A stretch of DNA of 64,000 nt from Candidatus Lokiarchaeum ossiferum. GTDB taxonomy: Archaea > Asgardarchaeota > Lokiarchaeia > Sigyniarchaeales > Promethearchaeaceae. The notes under the pieces are model-generated. The model worked only from the letters and a program-made list of their open reading frames with translations. It did not search any database and was not told the DNA's origin. Location of the stretch: assembly GCA_025839675.1 (NCBI GenBank), contig CP104013.1, forward strand, positions 3,041,121-3,105,120, written 5' to 3'. Positions 1 through 63,545 of the stretch are shown here, one piece after another. A program made the position numbers and the translations under genes. Positions within the stretch are counted from its first letter, which is position 1. Each line of letters starts with the position of its first letter.

Positions 1-216
1 ATCATCTCCTATCAGATCCTTCAAAATCACTAAAATCGTATACCCACCTATGGAGAAATTTTGGATTTCATCATCAAACGCCGTAGTTACTAGATTAACT
101 ACCGCACTAAGTAATCCATTCCGGGTTTCATGACTCAAAAATTCATCAGATGAGTAAAATTGAACTTCACTCAAAGGTTTATCTTTATAAAGAATTGCAG
201 TTTCTAAGATTGCCAT
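1..216 (-). CDS. hypothetical protein, N-terminal 72 codons only (gene runs off window start)
   Basis: ATG at 216-214 (minus) opens an uninterrupted frame to position 1 (MAILETAILYKDKPLSEVQFYSSDEFLSHETRNG...). It is absent from the ORF track because no stop lies inside the window. It loosely resembles small longin/roadblock-type domains but has no diagnostic motif. Confidence 0.3.
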   Translation of the reverse strand, partial: MAILETAILYKDKPLSEVQFYSSDEFLSHETRNGLLSAVVNLVTTAFDDEIQNFSIGGYTILVILKDLIGDD

Positions 217-33855: not shown

Positions 33856-34293
33856 ATGAAATCAATAATCCGAATGCGAATGTCCATGCATGATGCCCAT
33901 TATGGTGGGAATTTAGTTGATGGCGCGAAAATGCTTAATCTTTTTGGTGATGTTGCCACAGAGTTGCTAATTCGAAATGATGGTGATGAAGGTCTTTTCC
34001 GAGCTTATGACAATGTTGAGTTCTTAGCCCCCGTTTATGCAGGCGATTACATTGAAGCCACGGGTGAAATTATTGGAATCGGCAATAGTTCCCGGAAGAT
34101 GCAGTTCGAAGCTCGCAAAGTAATTATTCCTCGACCGGATTTAAATGATAGTGCTTGTGATGTGCTCACAGAACCTATTGTTGTTTGTCGTGCCAGTGGA
34201 ACTTGTGTTGTACCGAAAAACAAGCAGCGAAATTTGATTCCAATATCCCAATCTACAGTACCAACTTCCCCTAGTGGTTTAGCATTTAAATAG
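33856..34293 (+). CDS. kal: 3-aminobutyryl-CoA ammonia-lyase (hot-dog fold)
   Basis: [62 protein letters not shown] closely matches bacterial Kal as recalled. 145 aa. Confidence 0.75.
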
Positions 34294-37200
34294 CTTCGAT
34301 ACTCGATGATGGAGGGTTTCTTCATTCAATTGTTTTTTTTCTTGTAATTCACCACAAATCTTCTTAAAATCTAACCAAATAACTGTAGTTAGTTTGCTCC
34401 TAATTTTTGGATATAAATTCTCAATCACCTCATACATACATATTTGTTCCGCCATGGAATAAGTCTGGTATCTTTTTTTTGGTAGAAATAGAGGTATTTC
34501 TAGATAATCTTGATTATTTTTCGCTAGAAAGAATGGTTGTTTTCGAGAAATATTTAGAAGTTTACTAATGTCCTTTTCATAATAAATATCATATGGGATA
34601 ATGGGAGTGATATAAAAGTCGAGATGATAAGATTCTAAGATTGAATAGAGTTTATCATATAAAATTTGTACATTTTCACGCAAATGCAAAAAAATAACCA
34701 ATTTTTGAGCGTCATTCTGGGAATTTTTAGTATAAAGTATTTGTCCAGTGGGTAGTTGTTCTACCAAGGCTCGAATTTCTTTTTCTCTTGTTTGAGAATC
34801 CTCAATGATTAGGCACATAGTGAATGGATAGCCGATTATTTGCCAGAATTCCCATTTAAAAAACCGAGGTTGATACAAGATATTATTGTTGAAAAGGAGT
34901 TGAACTTCAGTTTCAGAAAGATCTTGATTAGTTTGATATTTTTTGAGCATCGCTTTGAGATCCTCAGATAAAGTGTGAAAACTATAGTCATAGTGAATCT
35001 CATGTGGATTGACAAAAAACTCAGCATCTTTTTTCTTCACTTTTTTTAATAGTAAATAATTCTGATACCGCCAATCCAGAGGATAGAGAGCATGTTCATT
35101 AAAAAAACGTCTTTCTTCAGTTAATTCATGAGAGTGTAAGCTAATTTGAAATTTTAATTTAATATTTTTAATCAATCGTTGAAAATTTGAGTTTTGATCA
35201 TAATATATTTGTTCTGGAAGGTAATATTCTAAAATTAAAAACCCATTCTCATTCCCACCAAAATAATAGCAATTTTCAAGACCAAGCATTAATAAACCCT
35301 TCAGTAATTCATCTTTCTGAAAAATAAGTGGATTGATTCCTCTATTAGGTGGTTTGATGAAGATAAATATTCTCTTCATTTTTGAGATTGGTGGATAAAT
35401 TTTAAGATCTGAAAAGTAATATTGTGTAATCTCATTTAGATCATTTGAAAATTTTCCAACAATGGAGGAGTATATGTTATTATTTAAAACACAGCGATTT
35501 AGGAATATTTTTTTAAAAATCGATTGGATCTTTGTACGATTTAAACCTAAGGTCTTGGAAAAACTATTCAATTGATTAAAATAGTTTAAATTTTTGAATA
35601 AATAATTATAGTTAAATTTACTTTTAATAGAGCACTTTTGATTAAAATTTGTATTCAAATGCAGATTTTTGCTTGGTATTATTCGAGTGACTCGTTTTTT
35701 TGCTTCGTTAATTAAAAAATCAAGATTAAAACTTTCTAAATTCCATTCTTGTTTATTGTAATTAAAAAAGGTAATCATGGAAGGATCGAATGCTTTTGAG
35801 AAGTTTCTGTAAAGAATTGACAAAGAATCAATGTTTTCTAACAAAAGTAACTTAGATATGATTAAAAAGGAAGATATGTTTGCAAATATACCTTTATGAT
35901 GCATTATTTTTCTATATGGTAGAACTTGTTGAAATTTTATTGACACAAATAGGAGAAATACCTCATCGATCCAATCCAATTTATATTTGCTTAAAATAAA
36001 AAATTTTATCACCTCCTTGTGTGAATTAAAAAATGAATTAATGGCCATTATCTTCGAATTTCTTAATAAATCATTGTATATTAGAGAGATAAACTTGTTT
36101 TCAATGATTTGGAAAGAATGATTTTTGACTTGAGAAAAATTTCTTTTAATATCAGCTAAAGTTGGGAATAAGTCAATCTCTAAATCTAATTTTTCAATTG
36201 ATTCTGTACTCGTAAATCCGAAAAATTCTATCAATTTGAGAAGCTTAATTTCATTCTTATTTTCATAGCTTTGATTTTTATAATATTTGAAAATTTCATT
36301 CAATGAGGAAAACCGTTGAAAAACCTTATCTTGATTAAGATGGATGAAAGTTTTTTTCAATTGACTAAAATTTGGATAATTTTTAATTAAAACAGGAAAC
36401 TCACTCGTTTTAATGGTTAGTTTGATGAATTTCAAAAATTCTCTCATTGTTTTAAATTCTTGAAGTTTTGAAAGGAGCATACGTGAATTGAAGAATAGAA
36501 ATAAATCTAAAGAATCAATTTCGATCTTGTCGGATAATTTACTGCCATTTGCATAAAAAAGTTCTGAATTATGTGAAATTTTCTGGTTAAATGAATTTTT
36601 TCTTTTTTCATTGATTTTGGAAAAATATTTTTTAGAATTAAAGGGAAAGATCGAAAGAATGTTTGTTTCACTTGAAATTTTTGAATTATAATTAATATTA
36701 TAGTTCGCTTTTTTAATTTCTAATAAGTTATAACTAATTATGTATCCACTTTCCTTTAATGAATTAAGAAATTTCGCTAAAAAATTAAGAGAATTTCGAG
36801 GAAGGATGGAATAAAGGAATAAATCATATCCTTCCTTCCTAATAATATTAACGTATGGTATTTTATGGATAATTTTTTTTATAAATTTATTCTGATCGAT
36901 TCCATTAGCAAGAATTATGTTGACGTAGTAAATACCAAGATTGAGATTATTATATTGATTAACAACAAAATAATTTAAAATCATACTTCCAGTGTAAATT
37001 TCAGAATTGGAGCCTTTCCTATTTAGAAGAAGATCCCTATTCGATTTATGGAGATTTTTCTTAATAAAGCCTAAATTGATATTTTTTCCGATATAATTTC
37101 CATAGGTATAAAATAACCCTTGAATAAAATCATGGGTACTGATATTCTCTGATAAAAATGGAATAAAAGTCTTAAAAACAATTTCTAGAGATATATTTTG

Positions 37201-37599
37201 AAGAAAATTCTCGATAAATGAGAGATAAACCATCGAATTATTTATGATCCCTGAAAAATGATCCAAAATCTCTTGATAAATTGGCTTTAATTCAAATAAT
37301 TCATTGTTTTTAAAATGGAGAAGAAATATAAAAGAAATGATATTTCTGTTGTCTAAATATCTTTCATCCATGAAACTGATAATAGAAGCAAATTCTACCA
37401 ATTGAATATAATTGTCCTTGTAATTCGAATGAAGATGGATAGATTCACTCAATAATAACCCAAAGTTTTTTTGAAAATTAGAAATTTCATTAGGATCACT
37501 ATGAAATAAAATATTTTTAAAAATGAAATTAGGAATTCTTTCGAATAGAAGCTCATATTTTGAGATATATTGAAGATATTTTTCGTATAAAATTCCCAT
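34279..37599 (-). CDS. large (1106 aa) low-complexity N/K/I/F-rich hypothetical protein
   Basis: A 3.3-kb stop-free frame in AT-rich DNA is unlikely by chance. No recognisable domain. Its 3' end overlaps kal convergently by 15 nt. Confidence 0.5.
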
Positions 37600-37757
37600 T
37601 GACTGTTAATTACTGATTCATCTGGAAAGAAAAATCTTTCTATGAAAAATATATGATTTTAAAAATATTGACTTAATTAATTAATGAGAAAAATGTATGA
37701 AAAAACCCTTATTACGATTAATTTTTTGCAGTTTTCCATTCGTGAGGTGAATGATAA

Positions 37758-37793
37758 ATGAATGTTCCAAACGATGTACAACTCCCACAATAA
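37758..37793 (+). CDS. micro-ORF MNVPNDVQLPQ (11 codons) behind strong SD GAGGTGA
   Basis: SD at 37744-37750, 7-nt spacer, then ATG. A paralogous copy lies 380 bp downstream. Too short for the ORF track. Confidence 0.15.
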   Translation: MNVPNDVQLPQ

Positions 37794-37797
37794 AAAA

Positions 37798-37864
37798 AAT
37801 GTCCTTTAAAAACCAATTAGATCAAAAAATCTAAGAATGTCCTTTAAAAACCAAGTAGATCAAA
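37798..37864 (+). repeat. 38-bp tandem direct repeat (2 copies, 28/29 identical)
   Basis: AATGTCCTTTAAAAACCAATTAGATCAAA at 37798-37826 and AATGTCCTTTAAAAACCAAGTAGATCAAA at 37836-37864. Confidence 0.5.
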
Positions 37865-38137
37865 TCTACTTTTTTTAAAGTTCATTTGGTTAAACTTGTT
37901 GAATAATGAAGGGGTATTGAAATCAATTTTAATATACGTATTCATATTTATAGAGATTTTGAAGATATTTTTCGTATAAAATTCACGTTGACTGTTAATT
38001 ACTGAATCGTTAAATTAAAAAAGTGTTTCGAAATATTTTGAGTTTATATACTCAAATCTAAAAAATATCTGAGAAAAATGCATAATCCTAATTGTCCGGA
38101 AAATAATCCTGTTTTCTAACTTTGAGGTGACATGTTA

Positions 38138-50376: not shown

Positions 50377-51030
50377 TTAATCCCACGGATTGAATTTTTC
50401 TCGACTTTTCATGTTAAATTTTTTCTGAATATCATTAATCAATTGATTTTTGCAGTAATCATCAATGAACTGTTCAATCAATTCTTGTTCTGAGAAATCA
50501 TAGCTTTCTGCAAGATTTGAGTTTTGAGAAAAAATGTAGTTAATTATTGAAAAAGCTGTATTTGGAATATTAGAGACAGAATGCATCCTAAAATTAGGAT
50601 TCGAATTTGTTTTTAAAATTAAATTGTTCAAATGGTTTGAAAAATGAGATAAATTAGGATATTGAGCAATTTTCATTGATTTCATGTATTCAGGATTTTC
50701 AACAATGTTCTCATCGAGAAATAAAAGGAATGATTCTGATATCTCATCTATCAAAGCATGAGAGAATGAAGGAGGTAAACCAGTTGTTATGACTAAAACA
50801 TCAACTTCTTGCTCAAATTGCTCAAAATAAGAACTTTCAAAGTCAAATAGATATTTTCCAAGTTTGATTGATCTTAGTTTATTATTCGCTTCTTGGCTCA
50901 TGGACCTCGCAAAGGTTTTTAATGCAGAGAAAAAACTGAGGAGCAAATTAGGATCGATAAATTGTTTGGAAAAAAAATGAGTAAATAGTGGAATTCCATT
51001 CCCGTCAGAAATTAGAACTGCTTCAATCAT
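50377..51030 (-). CDS. longin/roadblock-like domain protein
   Basis: The N-terminal about 110 aa (MIEAVLISDGNGIPLFTHFFSKQF...LSFFSALKTFARSM...) follows the alpha-beta pattern of longin/SNARE-like/roadblock domains. The rest is unassigned. Confidence 0.3.
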   Translation of the reverse strand: MIEAVLISDGNGIPLFTHFFSKQFIDPNLLLSFFSALKTFARSMSQEANNKLRSIKLGKYLFDFESSYFEQFEQEVDVLVITTGLPPSFSHALIDEISESFLLFLDENIVENPEYMKSMKIAQYPNLSHFSNHLNNLILKTNSNPNFRMHSVSNIPNTAFSIINYIFSQNSNLAESYDFSEQELIEQFIDDYCKNQLINDIQKKFNMKSREKFNPWD

Positions 51031-59155: not shown

Positions 59156-59980
59156 ATGGCTGATGATTTTAGTTTTAACTGTCCCCGATGTGGGAAAGAA
59201 CCTAAACGTGGGAAATTTTTAGGATCAGAAATATGGCATGATGAATGTCTTGTCGAAGATATGGTGGAAAAGTTTAATTCTGGAACTCCACGTGAAGAAA
59301 TCGAAAAAACTTTAAAACGAGTAAAAGATAAAGGTGTTGAACAAAATGTGGGTTTGAAATGTGGTTGGCCTGAATATCAACCACCTAAATCTCAAGAGGA
59401 AATTGAAGCAGAGTATCAAGCAGAACTAGAAGCTGCAGAAGCAAAAGCAGATGCTGAAGCCGCGATTAAAGCCGCTGAAGAAGCTGAGAGTGAAGAAGCT
59501 AAAGCTGCTGCAGAAGCTGCAGTAGCTGAAGCACAATCGAAGGCTGATAATGCTTCTAAAGTTGCAGAAAATGCAAAAATAATTCAAACTCCTTCATCTC
59601 AAAATTCTGGAGCCCCGGCATCTACATCTTCAATGCCTTCAACACCTTTGACCCCAATGGGAGCACCTCAATTTGCCCCATATCCACCAATGACCGCACC
59701 ACAGATGGCTCCAATGCCTATGATGGCCCCATCGAGATTAGAAGCTTTTAAGCCCGCACCCACCGATGAAGTTGTGAGAAATATTGCAATTTCAGCAATG
59801 GAAGTATGCTTAAAAACTATGAAAAAAGATGTGGAATATGGAAAGTTATTATTTAAATTCATGAAAGAATTCAACTGGGAAGCTGAAGAAGATGATGATG
59901 TTGAAAAAAGTGAGGATTCTGATAAAGAAGATGTTGATGAAGAAATTGAAGATGCTAAACCATTCCTAGTTGAAGATTAA
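59156..59980 (+). CDS. acidic A/E-rich hypothetical protein with N-terminal CxxC...C pair
   Basis: FNCPRCGKEPKRGKFLGSEIWHDEC at the N-terminus; long AEAKA low-complexity region; acidic tail. Confidence 0.45.
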   Translation: MADDFSFNCPRCGKEPKRGKFLGSEIWHDECLVEDMVEKFNSGTPREEIEKTLKRVKDKGVEQNVGLKCGWPEYQPPKSQEEIEAEYQAELEAAEAKADAEAAIKAAEEAESEEAKAAAEAAVAEAQSKADNASKVAENAKIIQTPSSQNSGAPASTSSMPSTPLTPMGAPQFAPYPPMTAPQMAPMPMMAPSRLEAFKPAPTDEVVRNIAISAMEVCLKTMKKDVEYGKLLFKFMKEFNWEAEEDDDVEKSEDSDKEDVDEEIEDAKPFLVED

Positions 59981-59986
59981 TTTTTT

Positions 59987-61753
59987 TTATTTTGTTCTAC
60001 TCCCACATTTGTTGCAAAACTTGAAATTTTTATTTAACTTTGCACCACAATTAGGACATTCAATCATATTTTTATTCGAAACATCTCCAATAACAGAATG
60101 AGAAGTTCCAAAAATATTTGATTTTGCAGAAGTTACATTTGAAGGACCAGTGTTCGTTCCAGATGTAGTTTTTTTTAAAAAGGAAGGAATATAATCAGTT
60201 TGATTGGCAGATTTCTCAATGAATGGAGATCGACTTTCTTTATTTGTAGATTTGGGAATAATTGGTTTTTTATTGACATCTACATTTGACATAAAACCCC
60301 ATGAAGTTTTTGGTTCTTTTTTTTTGATATTAGATTGAATTGAATCAGGTTTTGAAGGAGCATCAAAAAAAGAATAGGTTTTTTTCTTAGGAATGATGGA
60401 TTTTGATTCGGTTGTTCCCTGTTTTGCTGGTAATGAATCTAAAAATGAATAGGATTTATTATTATCATTTGAAGATTTTTGAAATTCATTAGGTTTTTTT
60501 GGGCTGTCAAAAAATGAATAATTTTGAGTAGGTTTGATAATTTTTGGTTCTTTTTTCTCAGACCGAGTATTTCTAAAGTCAGGAGATGTAAATGGAGCAG
60601 GCTTCTTTGTATTTGATTTTGAAGATTGAGCGAGAAATGGGTTCCCTTTGATTTCTGATGAATTTCCAGATATGGATGAAGGAATGCCTTCTGAAGAAAA
60701 TGATGGAGGAGAAGGTTTAGGGGGTATTTTTACAGTTGGTGGTTCTTGCTTCGAATTTGATGGAAATTGTGAATTAATTTGAACTGGAGGTAATTTGACC
60801 TCTGATTTTTTAGGAATATTTTGCTTTTGAATTGGGGTATTTTGAACGGGAGTTTTTGGTGAAAACCAATCAGGTTCTTCTACTATTGAAGATGTAAGAA
60901 TATCATTACTTTTTTTCAATGCTTCTTTCTGAGGTTCCGAAGTAATATTTTCTTTAGAATTACCCAAAGACAATATTGAAGTCTCATCTATTTTCGGAAT
61001 ATTGAAAGGGTTGCTTGGTAATTTATTAGAAACAGGATTTTTTGATAATGAAGAATATATTGGAGCGGGTTTAGGTTTATGAGAAACACTCGGCATAGGT
61101 TTATTTGATACTGGATCCTTAGGAGCAAACACAGGTATAGGTTGAGGTATTTTTTTTGAAATAGATTCGACGTCTATTGTTTTTTCATTATTAGGTTGCT
61201 CAGATAAGGAAGGAGAACCCCCTAACATTGCTGGAGGGATATCTTCTCCAATCATTAGCAAAGCAAGAATTCCAAAAACATCTCCAACTCCATCTCCACT
61301 TTTCGCACTAGACTCAACATAAAACATGTTAAGATCTTTTGCAACCTCTTCAGCTTCATTTCTTGAAATAACCCTTTGATCAACAAGATCTTTCTTATTT
61401 CCAACTAAAAGCATTGGAATAGAACCGGATTCCTTTTTAACCTCATCCATCCACTTAGGAATATGATCAAAACTCTCACGATTTGTAAGATCAAAAAGAA
61501 TGATACAACCCATTGAACCTTTGTAATAAAGAGGACGAACATACTGGAATCTCTCCTGTCCACCTGTATCCCATATTTGAAGTTTTACATTATGATTATT
61601 AATATGGATGGTTTTGACTGCAAATTCCACACCGATAGTTAATTTATAGTTTTCTTGAAAAAAGCCTTGACTAAAGCGAACCACAAGAGCAGTTTTCCCA
61701 CAGCCACCATCACCTACAGCAACACATTTAAATAGATAATCATAATTGTCCAA
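59987..61753 (-). CDS. Ras-superfamily small GTPase (Rab/Ras-like) fused to about 400-aa disordered linker and C-terminal zinc ribbon
   Basis: G1 GDGGCGKT, G2 Thr, G3 WDTGGQE, G4 GNKKD, G5 SAK in the first about 175 aa. Then a P/S/K/N-rich region with three YSF(F/L)D(S/A)P-type repeats. It ends with CPNCGAKLNKNFKFCNKCGSR. Confidence 0.8.
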   Translation of the reverse strand: MDNYDYLFKCVAVGDGGCGKTALVVRFSQGFFQENYKLTIGVEFAVKTIHINNHNVKLQIWDTGGQERFQYVRPLYYKGSMGCIILFDLTNRESFDHIPKWMDEVKKESGSIPMLLVGNKKDLVDQRVISRNEAEEVAKDLNMFYVESSAKSGDGVGDVFGILALLMIGEDIPPAMLGGSPSLSEQPNNEKTIDVESISKKIPQPIPVFAPKDPVSNKPMPSVSHKPKPAPIYSSLSKNPVSNKLPSNPFNIPKIDETSILSLGNSKENITSEPQKEALKKSNDILTSSIVEEPDWFSPKTPVQNTPIQKQNIPKKSEVKLPPVQINSQFPSNSKQEPPTVKIPPKPSPPSFSSEGIPSSISGNSSEIKGNPFLAQSSKSNTKKPAPFTSPDFRNTRSEKKEPKIIKPTQNYSFFDSPKKPNEFQKSSNDNNKSYSFLDSLPAKQGTTESKSIIPKKKTYSFFDAPSKPDSIQSNIKKKEPKTSWGFMSNVDVNKKPIIPKSTNKESRSPFIEKSANQTDYIPSFLKKTTSGTNTGPSNVTSAKSNIFGTSHSVIGDVSNKNMIECPNCGAKLNKNFKFCNKCGSRTK

Positions 61754-61860
61754 TTTCTTGTAACCTCTTATTTTGTTTGAATTTCTTTTTTTAACGTTTT
61801 CTTTATATTACTTTAATTAGTATCACATAATGCTAATAATTTTTGTATATAGTATGATTA

Positions 61861-62712
61861 TTAATTTTTACTACCGCATATAGGACAAATCTTCCAATTA
61901 TTATTCATATTAGCTTTGCAAATAGCACATTTCTTATTAGTTTCGAGCACTTGAACATTTTTTAAATAGCTATTCTTTTTTTTAGGTGGTGAGGTCATTC
62001 TCCCATCAATAATTTGAGAGAAAGATAATAATGCGTTTTGGGATGATTCTAAATCCCCATAATCGGCCGAAAAAGGATTATAAGGGATAATGGGTCGGAT
62101 AACTTTACTTGAATCTATTTGAGAATTGGTTCCTTCTTCTTCAATTGGTTGATTTATATGAGAAATTTTATGAGTGTTGGCATCATTTTCGATAATCTCA
62201 TTCTCACTTGATTTAATATTATGAGAAGATGCCGATCTATTAAATTCTTGCTTATCTACAGAAGATCTCTCTAAAATCATTGTTTCTTCACCAACTATTA
62301 GATCTTGAACAACATTTTCGATAATAGACTCTTCTGCAGTAAGTTTATTATTGGAAGCTGATATTTTTGCGTCCGAATTTTCGTTTTTATTAGGAATTGA
62401 TTCTTCATACAAAACTTCCTTCTGGCCTGCAATTTCAAAATAATATTGCCCATTATTATCATCAATATACTCTTTTCCATCAGATCCAACAATTTTAAAA
62501 AGATAGAGGATCTTATTTCCAAATGGCACATTTGGAAGGGTTATTGAATATGAATGGCCCAAATTATTCATTTTTACAGAATACCATGAATGAGCATTAT
62601 CAGTACTAAAAATGAGAAATAAATTGGACAAATCACCTTCAATATTGCATTTTATTTCCACTGAAATTTTAGAATCAATTTCTGATTGTTGACTCATCCC
62701 AAGATTATTCAT
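61861..62712 (-). CDS. beta-rich N-terminal domain protein (CBM20/48-like) with disordered linker and C-terminal zinc ribbon
   Basis: The N-terminus ...WYSVKMNNLGHSYSITLP...ILYLFKIVGSDGKEYIDDNNGQYYFEI resembles glycogen/starch-binding (CBM48/20) or Ig-like E-set domains. The C-terminus CAICKANMNNNWKICPICGSK is paralogous to the ribbon of the neighbouring GTPase. Confidence 0.45.
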   Translation of the reverse strand: MNNLGMSQQSEIDSKISVEIKCNIEGDLSNLFLIFSTDNAHSWYSVKMNNLGHSYSITLPNVPFGNKILYLFKIVGSDGKEYIDDNNGQYYFEIAGQKEVLYEESIPNKNENSDAKISASNNKLTAEESIIENVVQDLIVGEETMILERSSVDKQEFNRSASSHNIKSSENEIIENDANTHKISHINQPIEEEGTNSQIDSSKVIRPIIPYNPFSADYGDLESSQNALLSFSQIIDGRMTSPPKKKNSYLKNVQVLETNKKCAICKANMNNNWKICPICGSKN

Positions 62713-62867
62713 TCTAATATTAGATTATAATTGTTGCATTATTAAATTTAGTCATGTTTGAAAGGTATTTAAGAGGAAATTTCTCAATTAGCCTATGAGT
62801 GAAAAGTCAATTGAATAATATCTAGATAATATTAGGTTTATAATTCAAATATTGAGATTCTTATAAT

Positions 62868-63185
62868 ATGGCGTCTATGAATGATTTAGTAAATCTTTAT
62901 AAATTAGAACAAGCAATTCAAATTAATAAAATACAAGGAAATTACCAACAATTGCTAATCTTATATGATAAAATAATTGAAATGAAATCAAAATTATCAA
63001 ATAAATTAGGATTGGCCAAAACAATTTCTGAAAAAGGATTTTTATTAGAACAATTAGGATATCATCGGGAAGCCTTGGAACAATTCAATTTTGCAAAACA
63101 TATAGCGCGAGGAACTCCAAATAAAGATTTCATTTGTATTATTGAAAATAGAATTGAAAAAATTGAAAATTCTCAATTGTTATGA
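62868..63185 (+). CDS. small helical hypothetical protein
   Basis: 105-aa ORF, helix-repeat (TPR-like) character, no motif. Confidence 0.35.
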   Translation: MASMNDLVNLYKLEQAIQINKIQGNYQQLLILYDKIIEMKSKLSNKLGLAKTISEKGFLLEQLGYHREALEQFNFAKHIARGTPNKDFICIIENRIEKIENSQLL

Positions 63186-63227: not shown

Positions 63228-63545
63228 TTACCACATATAAGCGCCCATTATTGCGCTGGTTAGTAATCCAATAAAAATCAAACCGAAATACCAATTGTTA
63301 AACAATCCGAGATTATTTTTATGTTCACTTATATAACTTTTCATTCCTAAACACAAGCCGGCTAGCAGTAAATAATACATAATTGGAACCATAAAAGTTG
63401 AAGTAAAAGCCCATTTCATTATAAAGAATAAGAGGGTCGCAATAATATCAATAACTATGAAGGTCAATCCCATATATGTAAAAATTACTTCAGAACCTTG
63501 TTTTTGAGATTCTTTTTTCTGTGCTATTATCGACATATTTTTCAT
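63228..63545 (-). CDS. small membrane protein (3 TM)
   Basis: 105-aa hydrophobic ORF. Confidence 0.35.
   Translation of the reverse strand: MKNMSIIAQKKESQKQGSEVIFTYMGLTFIVIDIIATLLFFIMKWAFTSTFMVPIMYYLLLAGLCLGMKSYISEHKNNLGLFNNWYFGLIFIGLLTSAIMGAYMW

What the first reader, a model, noticed from the sequence alone, without database searches (positions are those of the whole stretch)
59987..61753. Small GTPase fused to a long disordered linker with repeated YSFFDxP motifs and a C-terminal zinc ribbon
Eukaryotic Rab/Ras proteins use C-terminal lipidation after a hypervariable linker for membrane targeting. Here an intact Ras-superfamily G domain is followed by a about 400-aa P/S/K/N-rich tail. The tail contains three copies of a short linear motif (NYSFFDSPKKP, KSYSFLDSLPAK, KTYSFFDAPSKP) and a terminal CxxC-x13-CxxC zinc ribbon. 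The ribbon could be a lipidation-independent targeting or interaction module. The SLiMs resemble adaptor-binding peptide motifs and could recruit partner proteins.
Basis: seen in the sequence. Interest (0 to 1): 0.7.

Follow-up and report, generated by a model that had tools for sequence, protein, structure and literature searches.

The report
Rab-like GTPase with zinc-ribbon tail
This Lokiarchaeum ossiferum gene encodes a Rab-like GTPase joined by a 380-residue disordered, motif-studded linker to a terminal zinc ribbon; the design is conserved across Loki-type Asgard archaea, lies next to a conserved partner gene, and could explain how these GTPases are positioned without lipid anchors.

Summary
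Window 59987..61753 (-) is one uninterrupted 588-aa gene, annotated only as "GTP-binding protein" in Candidatus Lokiarchaeum ossiferum.

- **Architecture:** an intact Rab-like G domain (aa 1-178), a disordered S/K/P/N-rich linker (aa 179-562), and a C4 zinc ribbon (aa 563-588). The ribbon spacing is CxxC-x10-CxxC, not x13.
- **Family:** this architecture is family-wide. 112 of the 120 best database homologues have it, as do about 70 of 80 species-level Asgard genomes, one locus per assembly. The four cysteines are invariant.
- **YSF[FL]D motif:** it is conserved only in the two closest orthologues, with 3-4 copies. Other clades carry different aromatic/proline islands, including NPF (about ten-fold enriched).
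- **New here:** the gene is directly adjacent, in 79 of 89 loci, to a partner gene with a parallel layout: beta-sandwich, disordered region, zinc ribbon.

Earlier papers state that archaeal Rab-likes lack C-terminal extensions, and I found none describing this family.

The function is inferred, not shown. I read it as a GTP switch on a flexible, motif-bearing tether that is docked by its zinc ribbon. I rate it a new variant of a known kind, of moderate-to-good interest.

The parts
59987..61753 (-). Complete CDS: 588 aa plus the stop codon at 59987..59989. TTG start at 61753.
   Evidence: The 588-aa product is called on 5 assemblies, and NCBI's cluster representative is also 588 aa.
61763..61768 (-). 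AGAGGT Shine-Dalgarno-like box, 9 nt upstream of the TTG start.
   Evidence: Read directly from the sequence. The resulting N-terminus MDNYDYLFK matches the family consensus MxEEYDYLFK.
61220..61753 (-). Rab-like small-GTPase G domain, aa 1-178. Motifs: G1 at 61691-61714, switch I at 61622-61648, switch II with the catalytic Gln at 61553-61573, NKxD at 61388-61402, SAK at 61301-61312.
   Evidence: Pfam Ras E 4e-55. Best PDB hits are Rab30, Rab1, Rab8, Sec4 and Thor-Rab 7EZB, at E 1e-42 to 1e-45. AF2 pLDDT is 85-97 over most of the domain. It is 93-96% identical in the nearest orthologues.
60068..61219 (-). Intrinsically disordered linker, aa 179-562. Rich in S/K/P/N, net charge +21 to +22 (depending on the exact boundaries), no transmembrane-like segment.
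   Evidence: AF2 shows no secondary structure and pLDDT 40-55. Composition and charge. Family linker length is 159-483 aa, median 364. It is 46-64% identical where the G domain is 93-96%.
60995..61015 (-). NPF motif 1 (SNPFNIP, aa 247-253).
   Evidence: NPF occurs 85 times against 8.4 expected across the family tails.
60848..60880 (-). Conserved island EEPDWFSPKTP (aa 292-302). It aligns with E-x-[WYF]-x-A-P-P-V-P-E in other clades.
60626..60646 (-). NPF motif 2 (GNPFLAQ, aa 370-376). It aligns with xPF[ST]S in the other clade.
60575..60604 (-). Conserved island KPAPFTSPDF (aa 384-393).
60491..60523 (-). YSF[FL]D motif copy 1: NYSFFDSPKKP (aa 411-421). It aligns with F[VI]PF[ST] in other clades.
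60422..60457 (-). YSF[FL]D motif copy 2: KSYSFLDSLPAK (aa 433-444), inside a genus-specific insertion.
60347..60382 (-). YSF[FL]D motif copy 3: KTYSFFDAPSKP (aa 458-469), inside a genus-specific insertion.
60266..60307 (-). Conserved island TSWGFMSNVDVNKK (aa 483-496). It aligns with LRIIPNV or VFIPEV in other clades.
59990..60067 (-). C-terminal C4 zinc ribbon, aa 563-588: MIECPNCGAKLNKNFKFCNKCGSRTK. Spacing CxxC-x10-CxxC, net charge +6, ending 5 residues before the stop.
   Evidence: Pfam Zn_Ribbon_1 26.9 bits, above cut-off. AF2 pLDDT 87-91 with two short strands. C566, C569, C580, C583 and G584 are invariant and N581 and K582 are at least 90% conserved in 112 sequences. The same ribbon sits 4-6 aa (8 in two sequences) from the C-terminus in 112 of 120 homologues and in about 70 of 80 genomes.
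61861..62712 (-). Conserved partner gene, 283 aa: an N-terminal E-set/CBM-like beta-sandwich (about aa 19-98), a disordered region with an invariant RPIIPYNPFS, and a C-terminal zinc ribbon CAIC-x10-CPIC.
   Evidence: It is adjacent to the GTPase gene in 79 of 89 loci. In one clade it is upstream on the same strand; in the other it is downstream and convergent. UniRef names it a CBM20 domain protein.

Best explanation
**What it is.** This gene is the Lokiarchaeum ossiferum member of a conserved orthologous family of Rab-like small GTPases. The family appears to have one copy per genome and is found in Loki-type Asgard archaea.

**Shown.**
- A catalytically complete Ras/Rab-type G domain.
- A 160-480-residue intrinsically disordered linker. 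It evolves fast but keeps short aromatic/proline-centred islands.
- A terminal four-cysteine zinc ribbon with a strongly conserved [YF]x[FY]CN[KR]CG face.

**Inferred mechanism.**
- The G domain works as a GTP/GDP switch.
- The zinc ribbon takes the topological place of the prenylated cysteines of eukaryotic Rabs. It docks the C-terminus onto a fixed target, which could be a protein or an anionic surface such as the membrane.
- The long linker lets the switch domain search a large volume. It also presents multivalent short linear motifs that recruit partner proteins. These include NPF, DWF-P, PFTS, WGFMS and, in this genus, three YSF[FL]D[SA]P copies.
- The adjacent gene, with its beta-sandwich, disordered region carrying NPF and zinc ribbon, is the most likely functional partner or co-client.
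For: **Intact switch.**
- G1-G5 and the catalytic Gln66 are present and invariant.
- The closest solved relatives are Rab30, Rab1, Rab8, Sec4 and Thor-Rab.

**Disorder and ribbon.** AF2 pLDDT is 40-55 with no secondary structure over aa 181-558. The ribbon scores 87-91.

**Family-wide architecture.**
- 112 of the 120 top homologues and about 70 of 80 species-level genomes, each from a different assembly, have it.
- They include the cultured Promethearchaeum syntrophicum MK-D1.

**Selection on the ribbon.** The four Cys and Gly584 are invariant, and N581 and K582 are at least 90% conserved. Net charge is never negative: mean +2.9, and +6 in this protein.

**Selection on the motifs.**
- G domains are 93-96% identical where tails are 46-64%, yet the motif cores are retained. 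P0004 has gained a fourth copy.
- No DNA-level tandem repeat exists, so the copies are old and kept at the peptide level.
- Conserved islands lie in an otherwise unalignable linker.
- NPF occurs 85 times against 8.4 expected, with up to 7 copies per tail in separate lineages.

**Partner.** The adjacent gene is kept in 79 of 89 loci despite an inversion of relative orientation. It has the same domain, disordered region and ribbon layout. NPF is present in both proteins or absent from both.
Against: - No functional data exist, and no binding partner for the ribbon or for any motif was identified.
- The ribbon is a generic Pfam type with no informative relative in the PDB. It could equally bind nucleic acid or protein.
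- The partner's ribbon has a different conserved face (W-x-I-C-P-I-C-G), so a shared docking site is not implied.
- Gene adjacency may partly reflect regional synteny. PAN, PUA, NAC and MazG genes are kept nearby too.
- The NPF co-variation amounts to about one evolutionary event.
- Lineage-specific tandem repeats are common in these linkers. Examples seen are KPEPKPYIPPER x3 in MK-D1 and EKERKLQEE x3 in the P0116 sequence. Repeat expansion alone could therefore generate repeated peptides.
- There is no amphipathic helix call or transmembrane segment in any tail.
- Other Asgard Rab-likes expressed in human cells were diffuse (PMC10933270).
Confidence: 0.4

Rival explanations
1. Only the G domain and the ribbon are functional. 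The linker is an entropic spacer of selected length and composition. The YSF[FL]D copies, like other repeats in these tails, are by-products of repeat expansion and have no dedicated binding partner.
For: - Linkers are unalignable between clades, and their length ranges from 159 to 483 aa.
- Different lineages carry different tandem repeats.
- YSF[FL]D is confined to three close sequences.
- AF2 gives no hint of induced structure.
Against: - The motif cores survive at 46% tail identity while the spacers diverge.
- The copies use different codons, and no DNA repeat is detectable.
- Several islands are kept across clades.
- NPF is about ten-fold enriched and was multiplied independently.
Confidence: 0.2
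2. The basic zinc ribbon binds nucleic acid or a ribonucleoprotein such as the ribosome or RNA polymerase. The protein would then be a GTP-regulated factor in translation or proteostasis, not a membrane or trafficking switch.
For: - Many archaeal zinc ribbons sit in ribosomal proteins, RNA polymerase subunits and TFIIB/TFS. The weak PDB profile hits are to these classes.
- The ribbon carries +6 net charge.
- The locus lies in a conserved block with the proteasome-activating ATPase, a PUA protein and the nascent-polypeptide-associated complex.
Against: - The PDB hits cover only the generic CPxCG knuckle.
- The G domain is Rab-like, not of the translation-factor class.
- In the larger clade the ribbon is nearly neutral.
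- The neighbouring housekeeping genes are not in one operon with this gene, and they are rearranged between clades.
Confidence: 0.15
3. The tail is a multivalent self-assembly device. The ribbons pair with each other or with the neighbour's ribbon, and the sticky aromatic motifs in a lysine/proline-rich disordered region drive clustering or condensation. The GTPase would then act in an assembly rather than as a tethered monomer.
For: - The two adjacent genes share the domain, disordered region and ribbon layout.
- The tail carries 25 evenly scattered aromatic residues in a charged disordered region.
- The motifs are multivalent.
Against: - There is no evidence for ribbon dimerisation.
- The two ribbon families differ in their conserved surface residues.
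- AF2 was run on monomers only.
Confidence: 0.15
4. Artefact: two genes, a small GTPase and a separate ribbon protein, are fused by a sequencing or assembly error or by a misread stop.
For: None found.
Against: - The frame is uninterrupted.
- The 588-aa product is called on five assemblies.
- The same fused architecture appears in 112 homologues and about 70 genomes.
Confidence: 0.01

Closest known systems
Eukaryotic Rab GTPases (Rab1, Rab8, Rab30, Sec4/Ypt1)
   Same: - The G domain is about 40-45% identical.
- Rab-type motifs are present: IGVEF, KLQIW, YYKG (read).
- A flexible, fast-evolving C-terminal region ends in a cysteine-containing element that plausibly determines location.
   Different: - The tail is about ten times longer than a Rab hypervariable domain.
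- The terminal cysteines form a CxxC-x10-CxxC zinc ribbon, not a CC, CXC or CAAX prenylation site.
- Asgard archaea lack detectable REP and GGTase, according to PMC4917890 and PMC10933270.
Described Asgard Rab-like GTPases (Thor-Rab, PDB 7EZB; the Lokiarchaeum Rab-likes of Surkont and Pereira-Leal 2016)
   Same: Same G-domain class. 7EZB scores E 8e-42.
   Different: Those proteins are described as lacking any C-terminal extension, cysteines or polybasic region (PMC4915359; PMC10933270). This family has all three kinds of feature. Many members carry a polybasic run before the ribbon.
Lokiarchaeal Rab-GTPase-histone fusion proteins (PMC11390915)
   Same: An N-terminal Rab-like domain is fused to a C-terminal non-GTPase module, and the type is restricted to Lokiarchaeota.
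   Different: The C-terminal module there is a histone fold. Here it is a zinc ribbon, reached through a far longer disordered linker.
Haloarchaeal Arco/Dip division-site oscillator (bioRxiv 10.64898/2026.07.23.738820)
   Same: A Ras-superfamily GTPase works with a protein built from a zinc ribbon and a long disordered linker that binds a cellular target. This is a precedent in archaea for the combination of GTPase, ribbon and disordered region.
   Different: - ArcoA is Arf/SR-beta-like with an N-terminal amphipathic helix.
- ArcoC is Pfam PF09845, with the ribbon at the N-terminus.
- The components are separate proteins, with a SepF-like third partner.
- None of these Pfam families hits the window proteins.
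Disordered motif arrays of eukaryotic trafficking adaptors (NPF-EH domain, DPW/FxDxF-appendage, FFAT-VAP). Named from general knowledge, not tested here.
   Same: Multiple short aromatic motifs (NPF, DWF, SFFDAP) lie in a long proline-rich disordered region. SFFDAP resembles the FFAT core EFFDAxE, and YSFF/YSFL fits YxxPhi.
   Different: - The flanks are basic, not acidic.
- No EH, MSP or mu-homology receptor was identified.
- The YSF[FL]D motif occurs in only three sequences.

Membership tests
Ras superfamily small GTPase | G1 GxxxxGK[ST], switch I Thr, G3 DxxGQ, G4 NKxD and G5 SAK in a domain of about 170 aa | tested here: met
   Pfam Ras E 4e-55 over aa 9-163. All five motifs were located and are invariant or nearly so in 112 sequences. 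AF2 pLDDT is 85-97 over most of the domain.
Rab family (eukaryotic sense) | Rab-family (RabF) sequence motifs in and around the switch regions | tested here: inconclusive
   By inspection, IGVEF, KLQIW and YYKGS match RabF1, F2 and F4. RFQYVR and ILFDLT match F3 and F5 only partly. Best PDB hits are Rabs. No dedicated Rab classifier was run.
Rab family (eukaryotic sense) | C-terminal prenylatable cysteine motif (CC, CXC, CCXX, CAAX) | tested here: not met
   The protein ends ...FCNKCGSRTK. The cysteines belong to a CxxC-x10-CxxC ribbon with AF2 pLDDT 87-91.
Rab family (eukaryotic sense) | Phylogenetic placement inside or sister to the eukaryotic Rab clade | not tested
   No tree was built. Similarity to eukaryotic Rabs (157 bits) and to Thor-Rab (147 bits) is about equal.
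Zinc ribbon (Pfam PF13240 Zn_Ribbon_1 / DZR clan) | Two CxxC knuckles about 10 residues apart forming a small beta-hairpin pair. Metal binding itself is part of the definition. | tested here: met
   The sequence and fold criteria are met: 26.9 bits against a cut-off of 25, four invariant Cys, and a confident two-strand AF2 model. Zinc binding itself cannot be tested with these tools.
FFAT motif (VAP/MSP-binding) | Core E-F-F-D-A-x-E | tested here: inconclusive
   Copy 3 SFFDAPS and copy 1 SFFDSPK share FFD[AS]P. Copy 2 is SFLDSLP. Positions 1 and 7 are not acidic. The consensus is recalled from memory.
FFAT motif (VAP/MSP-binding) | Acidic tract flanking the core | tested here: not met
   The flanks are basic: KIIKPTQN-, NDNNKS- and IIPKKKT- upstream, and -KKP and -SKP downstream.
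FFAT motif (VAP/MSP-binding) | An MSP-domain receptor in the same organism | not testable with these tools
   Only 64 kb of the genome is available. No MSP hit appeared among the 19 window ORFs scanned with Pfam.
NPF-EH domain system | NPF tripeptides in disordered regions, enriched and multivalent | tested here: met
   There are 85 NPF against 8.4 expected in the family tails, with up to 7 per tail and 2 in the window protein. An invariant YNPF lies in the partner's disordered region.
NPF-EH domain system | An EH-domain (paired EF-hand) receptor | not tested
   No proteome-wide search was possible. None is reported for Asgard archaea in the papers read.
Arco/Dip GTPase oscillator | ArcoA (PF01926-type GTPase with an N-terminal amphipathic helix), ArcoB (SepF-like, PF09846) and ArcoC (PF09845) in one cluster | tested here: not met
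   The window protein is PF00071 Ras with its P-loop at residue 14. Neither it nor its neighbours hit PF09845 or PF09846.

The most novel reading that the evidence does not exclude
The linker-plus-ribbon tail could be the archaeal solution to small-GTPase localisation, and possibly the evolutionary forerunner of the Rab hypervariable domain with its terminal cysteines. In this reading the ribbon anchors the switch at the membrane or cytoskeleton. The NPF, DWF and YSFFD array recruits beta-sandwich or EF-hand-type receptors, including the neighbouring E-set protein. That would make it a prokaryotic counterpart of the motif-appendage networks that organise eukaryotic trafficking.
Probability: 0.1. 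Interest if true: 0.85.

Novelty: new variant of a known kind. Interest (0 to 1): 0.55.

Why it matters
Asgard archaea encode dozens of Ras-superfamily GTPases, but it is unknown where they act. The literature stresses that they lack lipid anchors, C-terminal extensions and polybasic signals (PMC4915359, PMC4917890, PMC10933270).

This family is a clear exception. It has a Rab-like switch, a long motif-bearing tail and an invariant cysteine-rich terminus. It appears to be one copy per genome, has a conserved neighbour gene, and is present in both cultured Loki-type species, L. ossiferum and P. syntrophicum MK-D1.

That makes the localisation question directly testable through ribbon deletion, peptide pull-downs and imaging. 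If the tail proves to be an anchoring and recruiting device, it would show that spatially tethered GTPase signalling predates protein prenylation.

Tried and rejected
1. **DNA-level tandem repeats.** None underlies the three motifs; the only hit is a 6-nt microrepeat in the G domain. The copies are therefore not a recent slippage product.
2. **Generic repeat test.** Counting any 5-mer with at most one mismatch did not discriminate in this low-complexity tail. It was replaced by an information-weighted test.
3. **Bacterial promoter and terminator scan of 59900..62900.** Counts were at shuffle level, and the consensus does not apply to archaea. Co-transcription with the upstream gene remains unresolved.
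4. **Zinc-ribbon profile against the PDB.** Only CPxCG-knuckle matches to C2H2 fingers, TFIIS, LysW and ribosomal or RNA polymerase ribbons appeared. No specific relative was found.
5. **Structure of the neighbour.**
   - AF2 confidence was low: pLDDT 60-74 for the beta domain and a mean of 42.
   - Foldseek against the PDB gave no hit at E <= 0.001; the best were CBM21, CBM56 and FN3 at E 0.015-0.1.
   - The profile against PDB sequences gave nothing.
   - The fold assignment rests instead on profile hits to multi-repeat DUF7743/CBM56 proteins and on the UniRef name.
ORF 50377..51030 reaches only 21 bits against a cut-off of 26. ORF 1..216 is a 72-aa N-terminal fragment. Neither is adjacent to the GTPase gene in the related loci.
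7. **Downstream convergent 274-aa gene (59156..59980).** It is present only in the nearest relative and absent from MK-D1 and L008. It is not part of the core module.
8. **Arco/Dip membership.** Rejected.
9. **Literature searches.** No paper was found that describes a Rab-like GTPase with a disordered linker and a C-terminal zinc ribbon.
10. **Taxonomic labels.** The Thor-, Odin-, Hod-, Hermod- and Heimdall-archaeota labels, and one bacterial label, on some MAG records could not be verified. I do not use them to claim a distribution beyond Loki-type Asgards.
Full report
**1. The observation**

The window comes from Candidatus Lokiarchaeum ossiferum. The translated ORF matches, at a rounded 100%, the cluster representative that NCBI and UniRef name "GTP-binding protein [Candidatus Lokiarchaeum ossiferum]", on a 6.27-Mb contig. 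That representative differs from the window at two tail residues. The exact window product is called on five independent assemblies.

The ORF at 59987..61753 (-) is uninterrupted and encodes 588 aa.
- It starts at the only available start codon, TTG at 61753.
- An AGAGGT box lies 9 nt upstream.
- The resulting N-terminus, MDNYDYLFK, matches the family consensus.

Pfam finds Ras (aa 9-163, E 4e-55) and Zn_Ribbon_1 (aa 566-585, 26.9 bits against a cut-off of 25), and nothing in between.

The three motif copies sit at aa 411-421, 433-444 and 458-469.
- Three of the five tyrosines in the tail belong to them.
- The analytic expectation for YSF[FL]D is 1e-4.
- No shuffle out of 400 produced an equally informative recurrent 5-mer.
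- No DNA-level tandem repeat is detectable.

The ribbon is CxxC-x10-CxxC, not x13.

**2. Anatomy**

AlphaFold2, run with a 112-sequence family alignment, gives three clearly different regions:

| Region | Residues | pLDDT | Secondary structure |
|---|---|---|---|
| G domain | 1-178 | 85-97 (lower in the switch regions) | folded |
| Linker | 181-558 | 40-55 | none |
| Zinc ribbon | 560-588 | 87-91 | two short strands |

- The G domain has all five nucleotide-binding motifs and the catalytic glutamine.
- Its best solved relatives are Rab30, Rab1, Rab8, Sec4/Ypt1 and the Thorarchaeota Rab 7EZB, at E 1e-42 to 1e-45.
- The linker is S/K/P/N-rich with net charge +21 to +22, depending on the exact boundaries. 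No family member has a transmembrane-like segment in its tail.
- The ribbon is strongly basic here, at +6.

**3. It is a family, not a one-off**

- Of the 120 best hits among 5.8 billion proteins, 112 share the architecture. The same ribbon sits 4-6 residues (8 in two sequences) from the C-terminus, and total length is 359-683 aa.
- A scan of one genome per species returned 80 loci from 80 different assemblies. About 70 encode the complete architecture; the rest are truncated at contig ends or interrupted.
- Members include Promethearchaeum syntrophicum MK-D1, the original Lokiarchaeum sediment metagenome sequence (P0116) and Sigynarchaeum.
- The four cysteines and the following glycine are invariant. 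The Asn-Lys between the last two cysteines is at least 90% conserved. That suggests a specific binding face rather than a purely structural metal site.
- G domains are highly conserved. Linkers vary from 159 to 483 aa and are largely unalignable between clades.

**4. What is conserved in the linker**

An E-INS-i alignment shows islands of conservation:
- E-P-[DE]-W-F-[SA]-P, which aligns with E-Y-x-A-P-P-V-P-E in other clades
- NPFL, aligning with xPF[ST]S
- PAPFTSP
- the first YSFFD, aligning with F[VI]PF[ST]
- SWGFMSNV, aligning with LRIIPNV or VFIPEV

Copies 2 and 3 of YSF[FL]D lie in an insertion found only in the two nearest orthologues.
- Between the window protein and those orthologues, the G domain is 96% and 93% identical. 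The tail is only 64% and 46% identical.
- The motif cores are retained nonetheless, and P0004 has gained a fourth copy through a 23-aa unit duplication.
- NPF is enriched about ten-fold across the family (85 observed, 8.4 expected). It has been multiplied to 5-7 copies in separate lineages.
- Other lineages carry their own tandem repeats. Repeat expansion is therefore a general property of these tails, and YSF[FL]D is the Lokiarchaeum-genus version.

**5. A conserved neighbour (new here)**

The gene immediately upstream, 61861..62712 (-), encodes a 283-aa protein with three parts:
- a beta-rich N-terminal domain of about 100 aa
- a disordered region containing an invariant RPIIPYNPFS
- a C-terminal zinc ribbon

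An HMM built from five such neighbours finds a member directly adjacent to the GTPase gene in 79 of 89 loci.
- In the Lokiarchaeum/Promethearchaeum clade it is upstream on the same strand.
- In the larger clade, whose ribbon reads LSSDYAFCNKC, it is downstream and convergent.
- The pair has therefore survived an inversion.

This evidence has two weaknesses.
- The wider region, with the proteasome-activating ATPase, a PUA protein, NAC and MazG, is also partly syntenic.
- NPF is present in both proteins in one clade and absent from both in the other, which is roughly a single evolutionary event.

The neighbour's N-domain is an E-set/CBM-like beta-sandwich. The support for this is:
- UniRef calls it a CBM20 domain protein.
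- A profile search of 1.84 billion representatives finds the domain as 5-15 tandem copies in 900-3000-aa proteins carrying DUF7743, CBM56, GlgE-N and Ig-like domains.
- The AF2 model is low-confidence, and Foldseek gives only weak CBM21, CBM56 and FN3 matches.

**6. Mechanism**

*Shown:* an intact Rab-like switch, a disordered linker with selected short motifs, an invariant terminal ribbon, and a conserved adjacent gene with the same layout.

*Inferred:*
- The ribbon docks the C-terminus to a fixed target.
- The linker acts as a long tether and as a multivalent recruitment platform.
- The neighbour is a partner or co-client.

I give this model 0.4 confidence. The rival explanations are:

| Rival | Confidence |
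|---|---|
| The linker is only a spacer | 0.2 |
| The ribbon binds nucleic acid or ribonucleoprotein, as the proteostasis/translation neighbourhood and generic ribbon relatives might suggest | 0.15 |
| The tail drives self-assembly or ribbon pairing | 0.15 |
| Fusion artefact (excluded) | 0.01 |

**7. Comparison with what is known**

- The G domain belongs to the Ras superfamily and is Rab-like. The protein fails the Rab criterion of a prenylatable C-terminus, and its phylogenetic position was not tested.
- Published analyses state that archaeal Rab-likes have short C-termini without cysteines or polybasic regions, and that no Loki GTPase shows evidence of membrane association (PMC4915359; PMC4917890; PMC10933270). 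This family contradicts the first statement for one conserved orthologue.
- Precedents for Rab-like domains fused to other modules exist in Lokiarchaeota. These are the histone fusions (PMC11390915) and the roadblock/longin fusions.
- A functional precedent for a Ras-superfamily GTPase working with a ribbon-plus-disordered-linker protein exists in the haloarchaeal Arco/Dip oscillator. That system's defining families are absent here.
- Resemblances of YSFFDAP to FFAT or YxxPhi motifs, and of NPF to EH-domain ligands, are recalled from general knowledge. The FFAT acidic-flank criterion fails, and no receptor could be sought in a 64-kb window.
- I found no paper describing this architecture. It may still appear in supplementary orthologue tables that I could not search.

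**8. Verdict**

The gene is a real member of a conserved but apparently undescribed variant of Asgard Rab-like GTPases, and it comes with a conserved partner gene. The function remains inferred.

- Interest: 0.55. The finding is not categorically new. It does offer a concrete handle, in cultured organisms, on the open question of how Asgard small GTPases are localised.
- Novelty: new variant of a known kind.

Noticed in passing
window 61861..62712 (-): A 283-aa protein with an E-set/CBM-like beta-sandwich, a disordered region carrying an invariant RPIIPYNPFS, and a C-terminal zinc ribbon. It is adjacent to the GTPase gene in 79 of 89 related loci. In the convergent clade (for example L007 7738..8517) it also has an extra N-terminal double CxxC.
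   Followed up: yes
window 59156..59980 (+): A 274-aa protein with an N-terminal CPRC...C, an Ala/Glu-rich segment, a Pro/Met-rich low-complexity segment and an acidic C-terminus. It is convergent with the GTPase gene, and the two stop codons are 6 nt apart. It is present in the nearest relative (L005) but absent from MK-D1 and L008.
   Followed up: partly
window 34279..37599 (-): A 1106-aa ORF with no Pfam hit at E <= 1e-3. It lies in the lowest-GC part of the window (36001-38000: GC 0.244, against about 0.33 elsewhere).
   Followed up: no
window 62868..63185 (+) and 63228..63545 (-): Two 105-aa ORFs lie between the NAC gene and the partner gene. One is weakly TPR-like and the other is a hydrophobic protein with several membrane-spanning-looking stretches. 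ORFs of the same sizes and orientations occupy the same positions in L005, L006 (MK-D1) and L008.
   Followed up: partly
window 50377..51030 (-) and 1..216 (-): The 217-aa ORF has only a sub-threshold longin hit (Fuz_longin_1, 21 bits against a cut-off of 26.1). The 72-aa fragment at the window edge looks longin/roadblock-like by eye. Neither is adjacent to the GTPase gene.
   Followed up: partly
L006 13848..14981 (MK-D1): In Promethearchaeum syntrophicum an FtsZ gene lies about 4.3 kb downstream of the orthologous GTPase gene. This is not the case in the window. It is noted only because of the Arco/Dip analogy.
   Followed up: no
P0061 (617 aa) and P0113 (518 aa): These are divergent relatives. 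In P0061 the same kind of G domain and terminal ribbon are combined with TPR repeats. P0113 has a different ribbon sequence (CPGCNREIPADWKFCTYC). The ribbon tail may therefore be reused with other modules.
   Followed up: no
L076: A contig labelled Candidatus Nanopelagicaceae bacterium carries a close homologue of this Asgard GTPase. This is probably a binning or labelling error. Several MAGs labelled Thor-, Odin-, Hod-, Hermod- or Heimdall-archaeota carry the Loki-type clade II sequence, so their labels could not be trusted.
   Followed up: no
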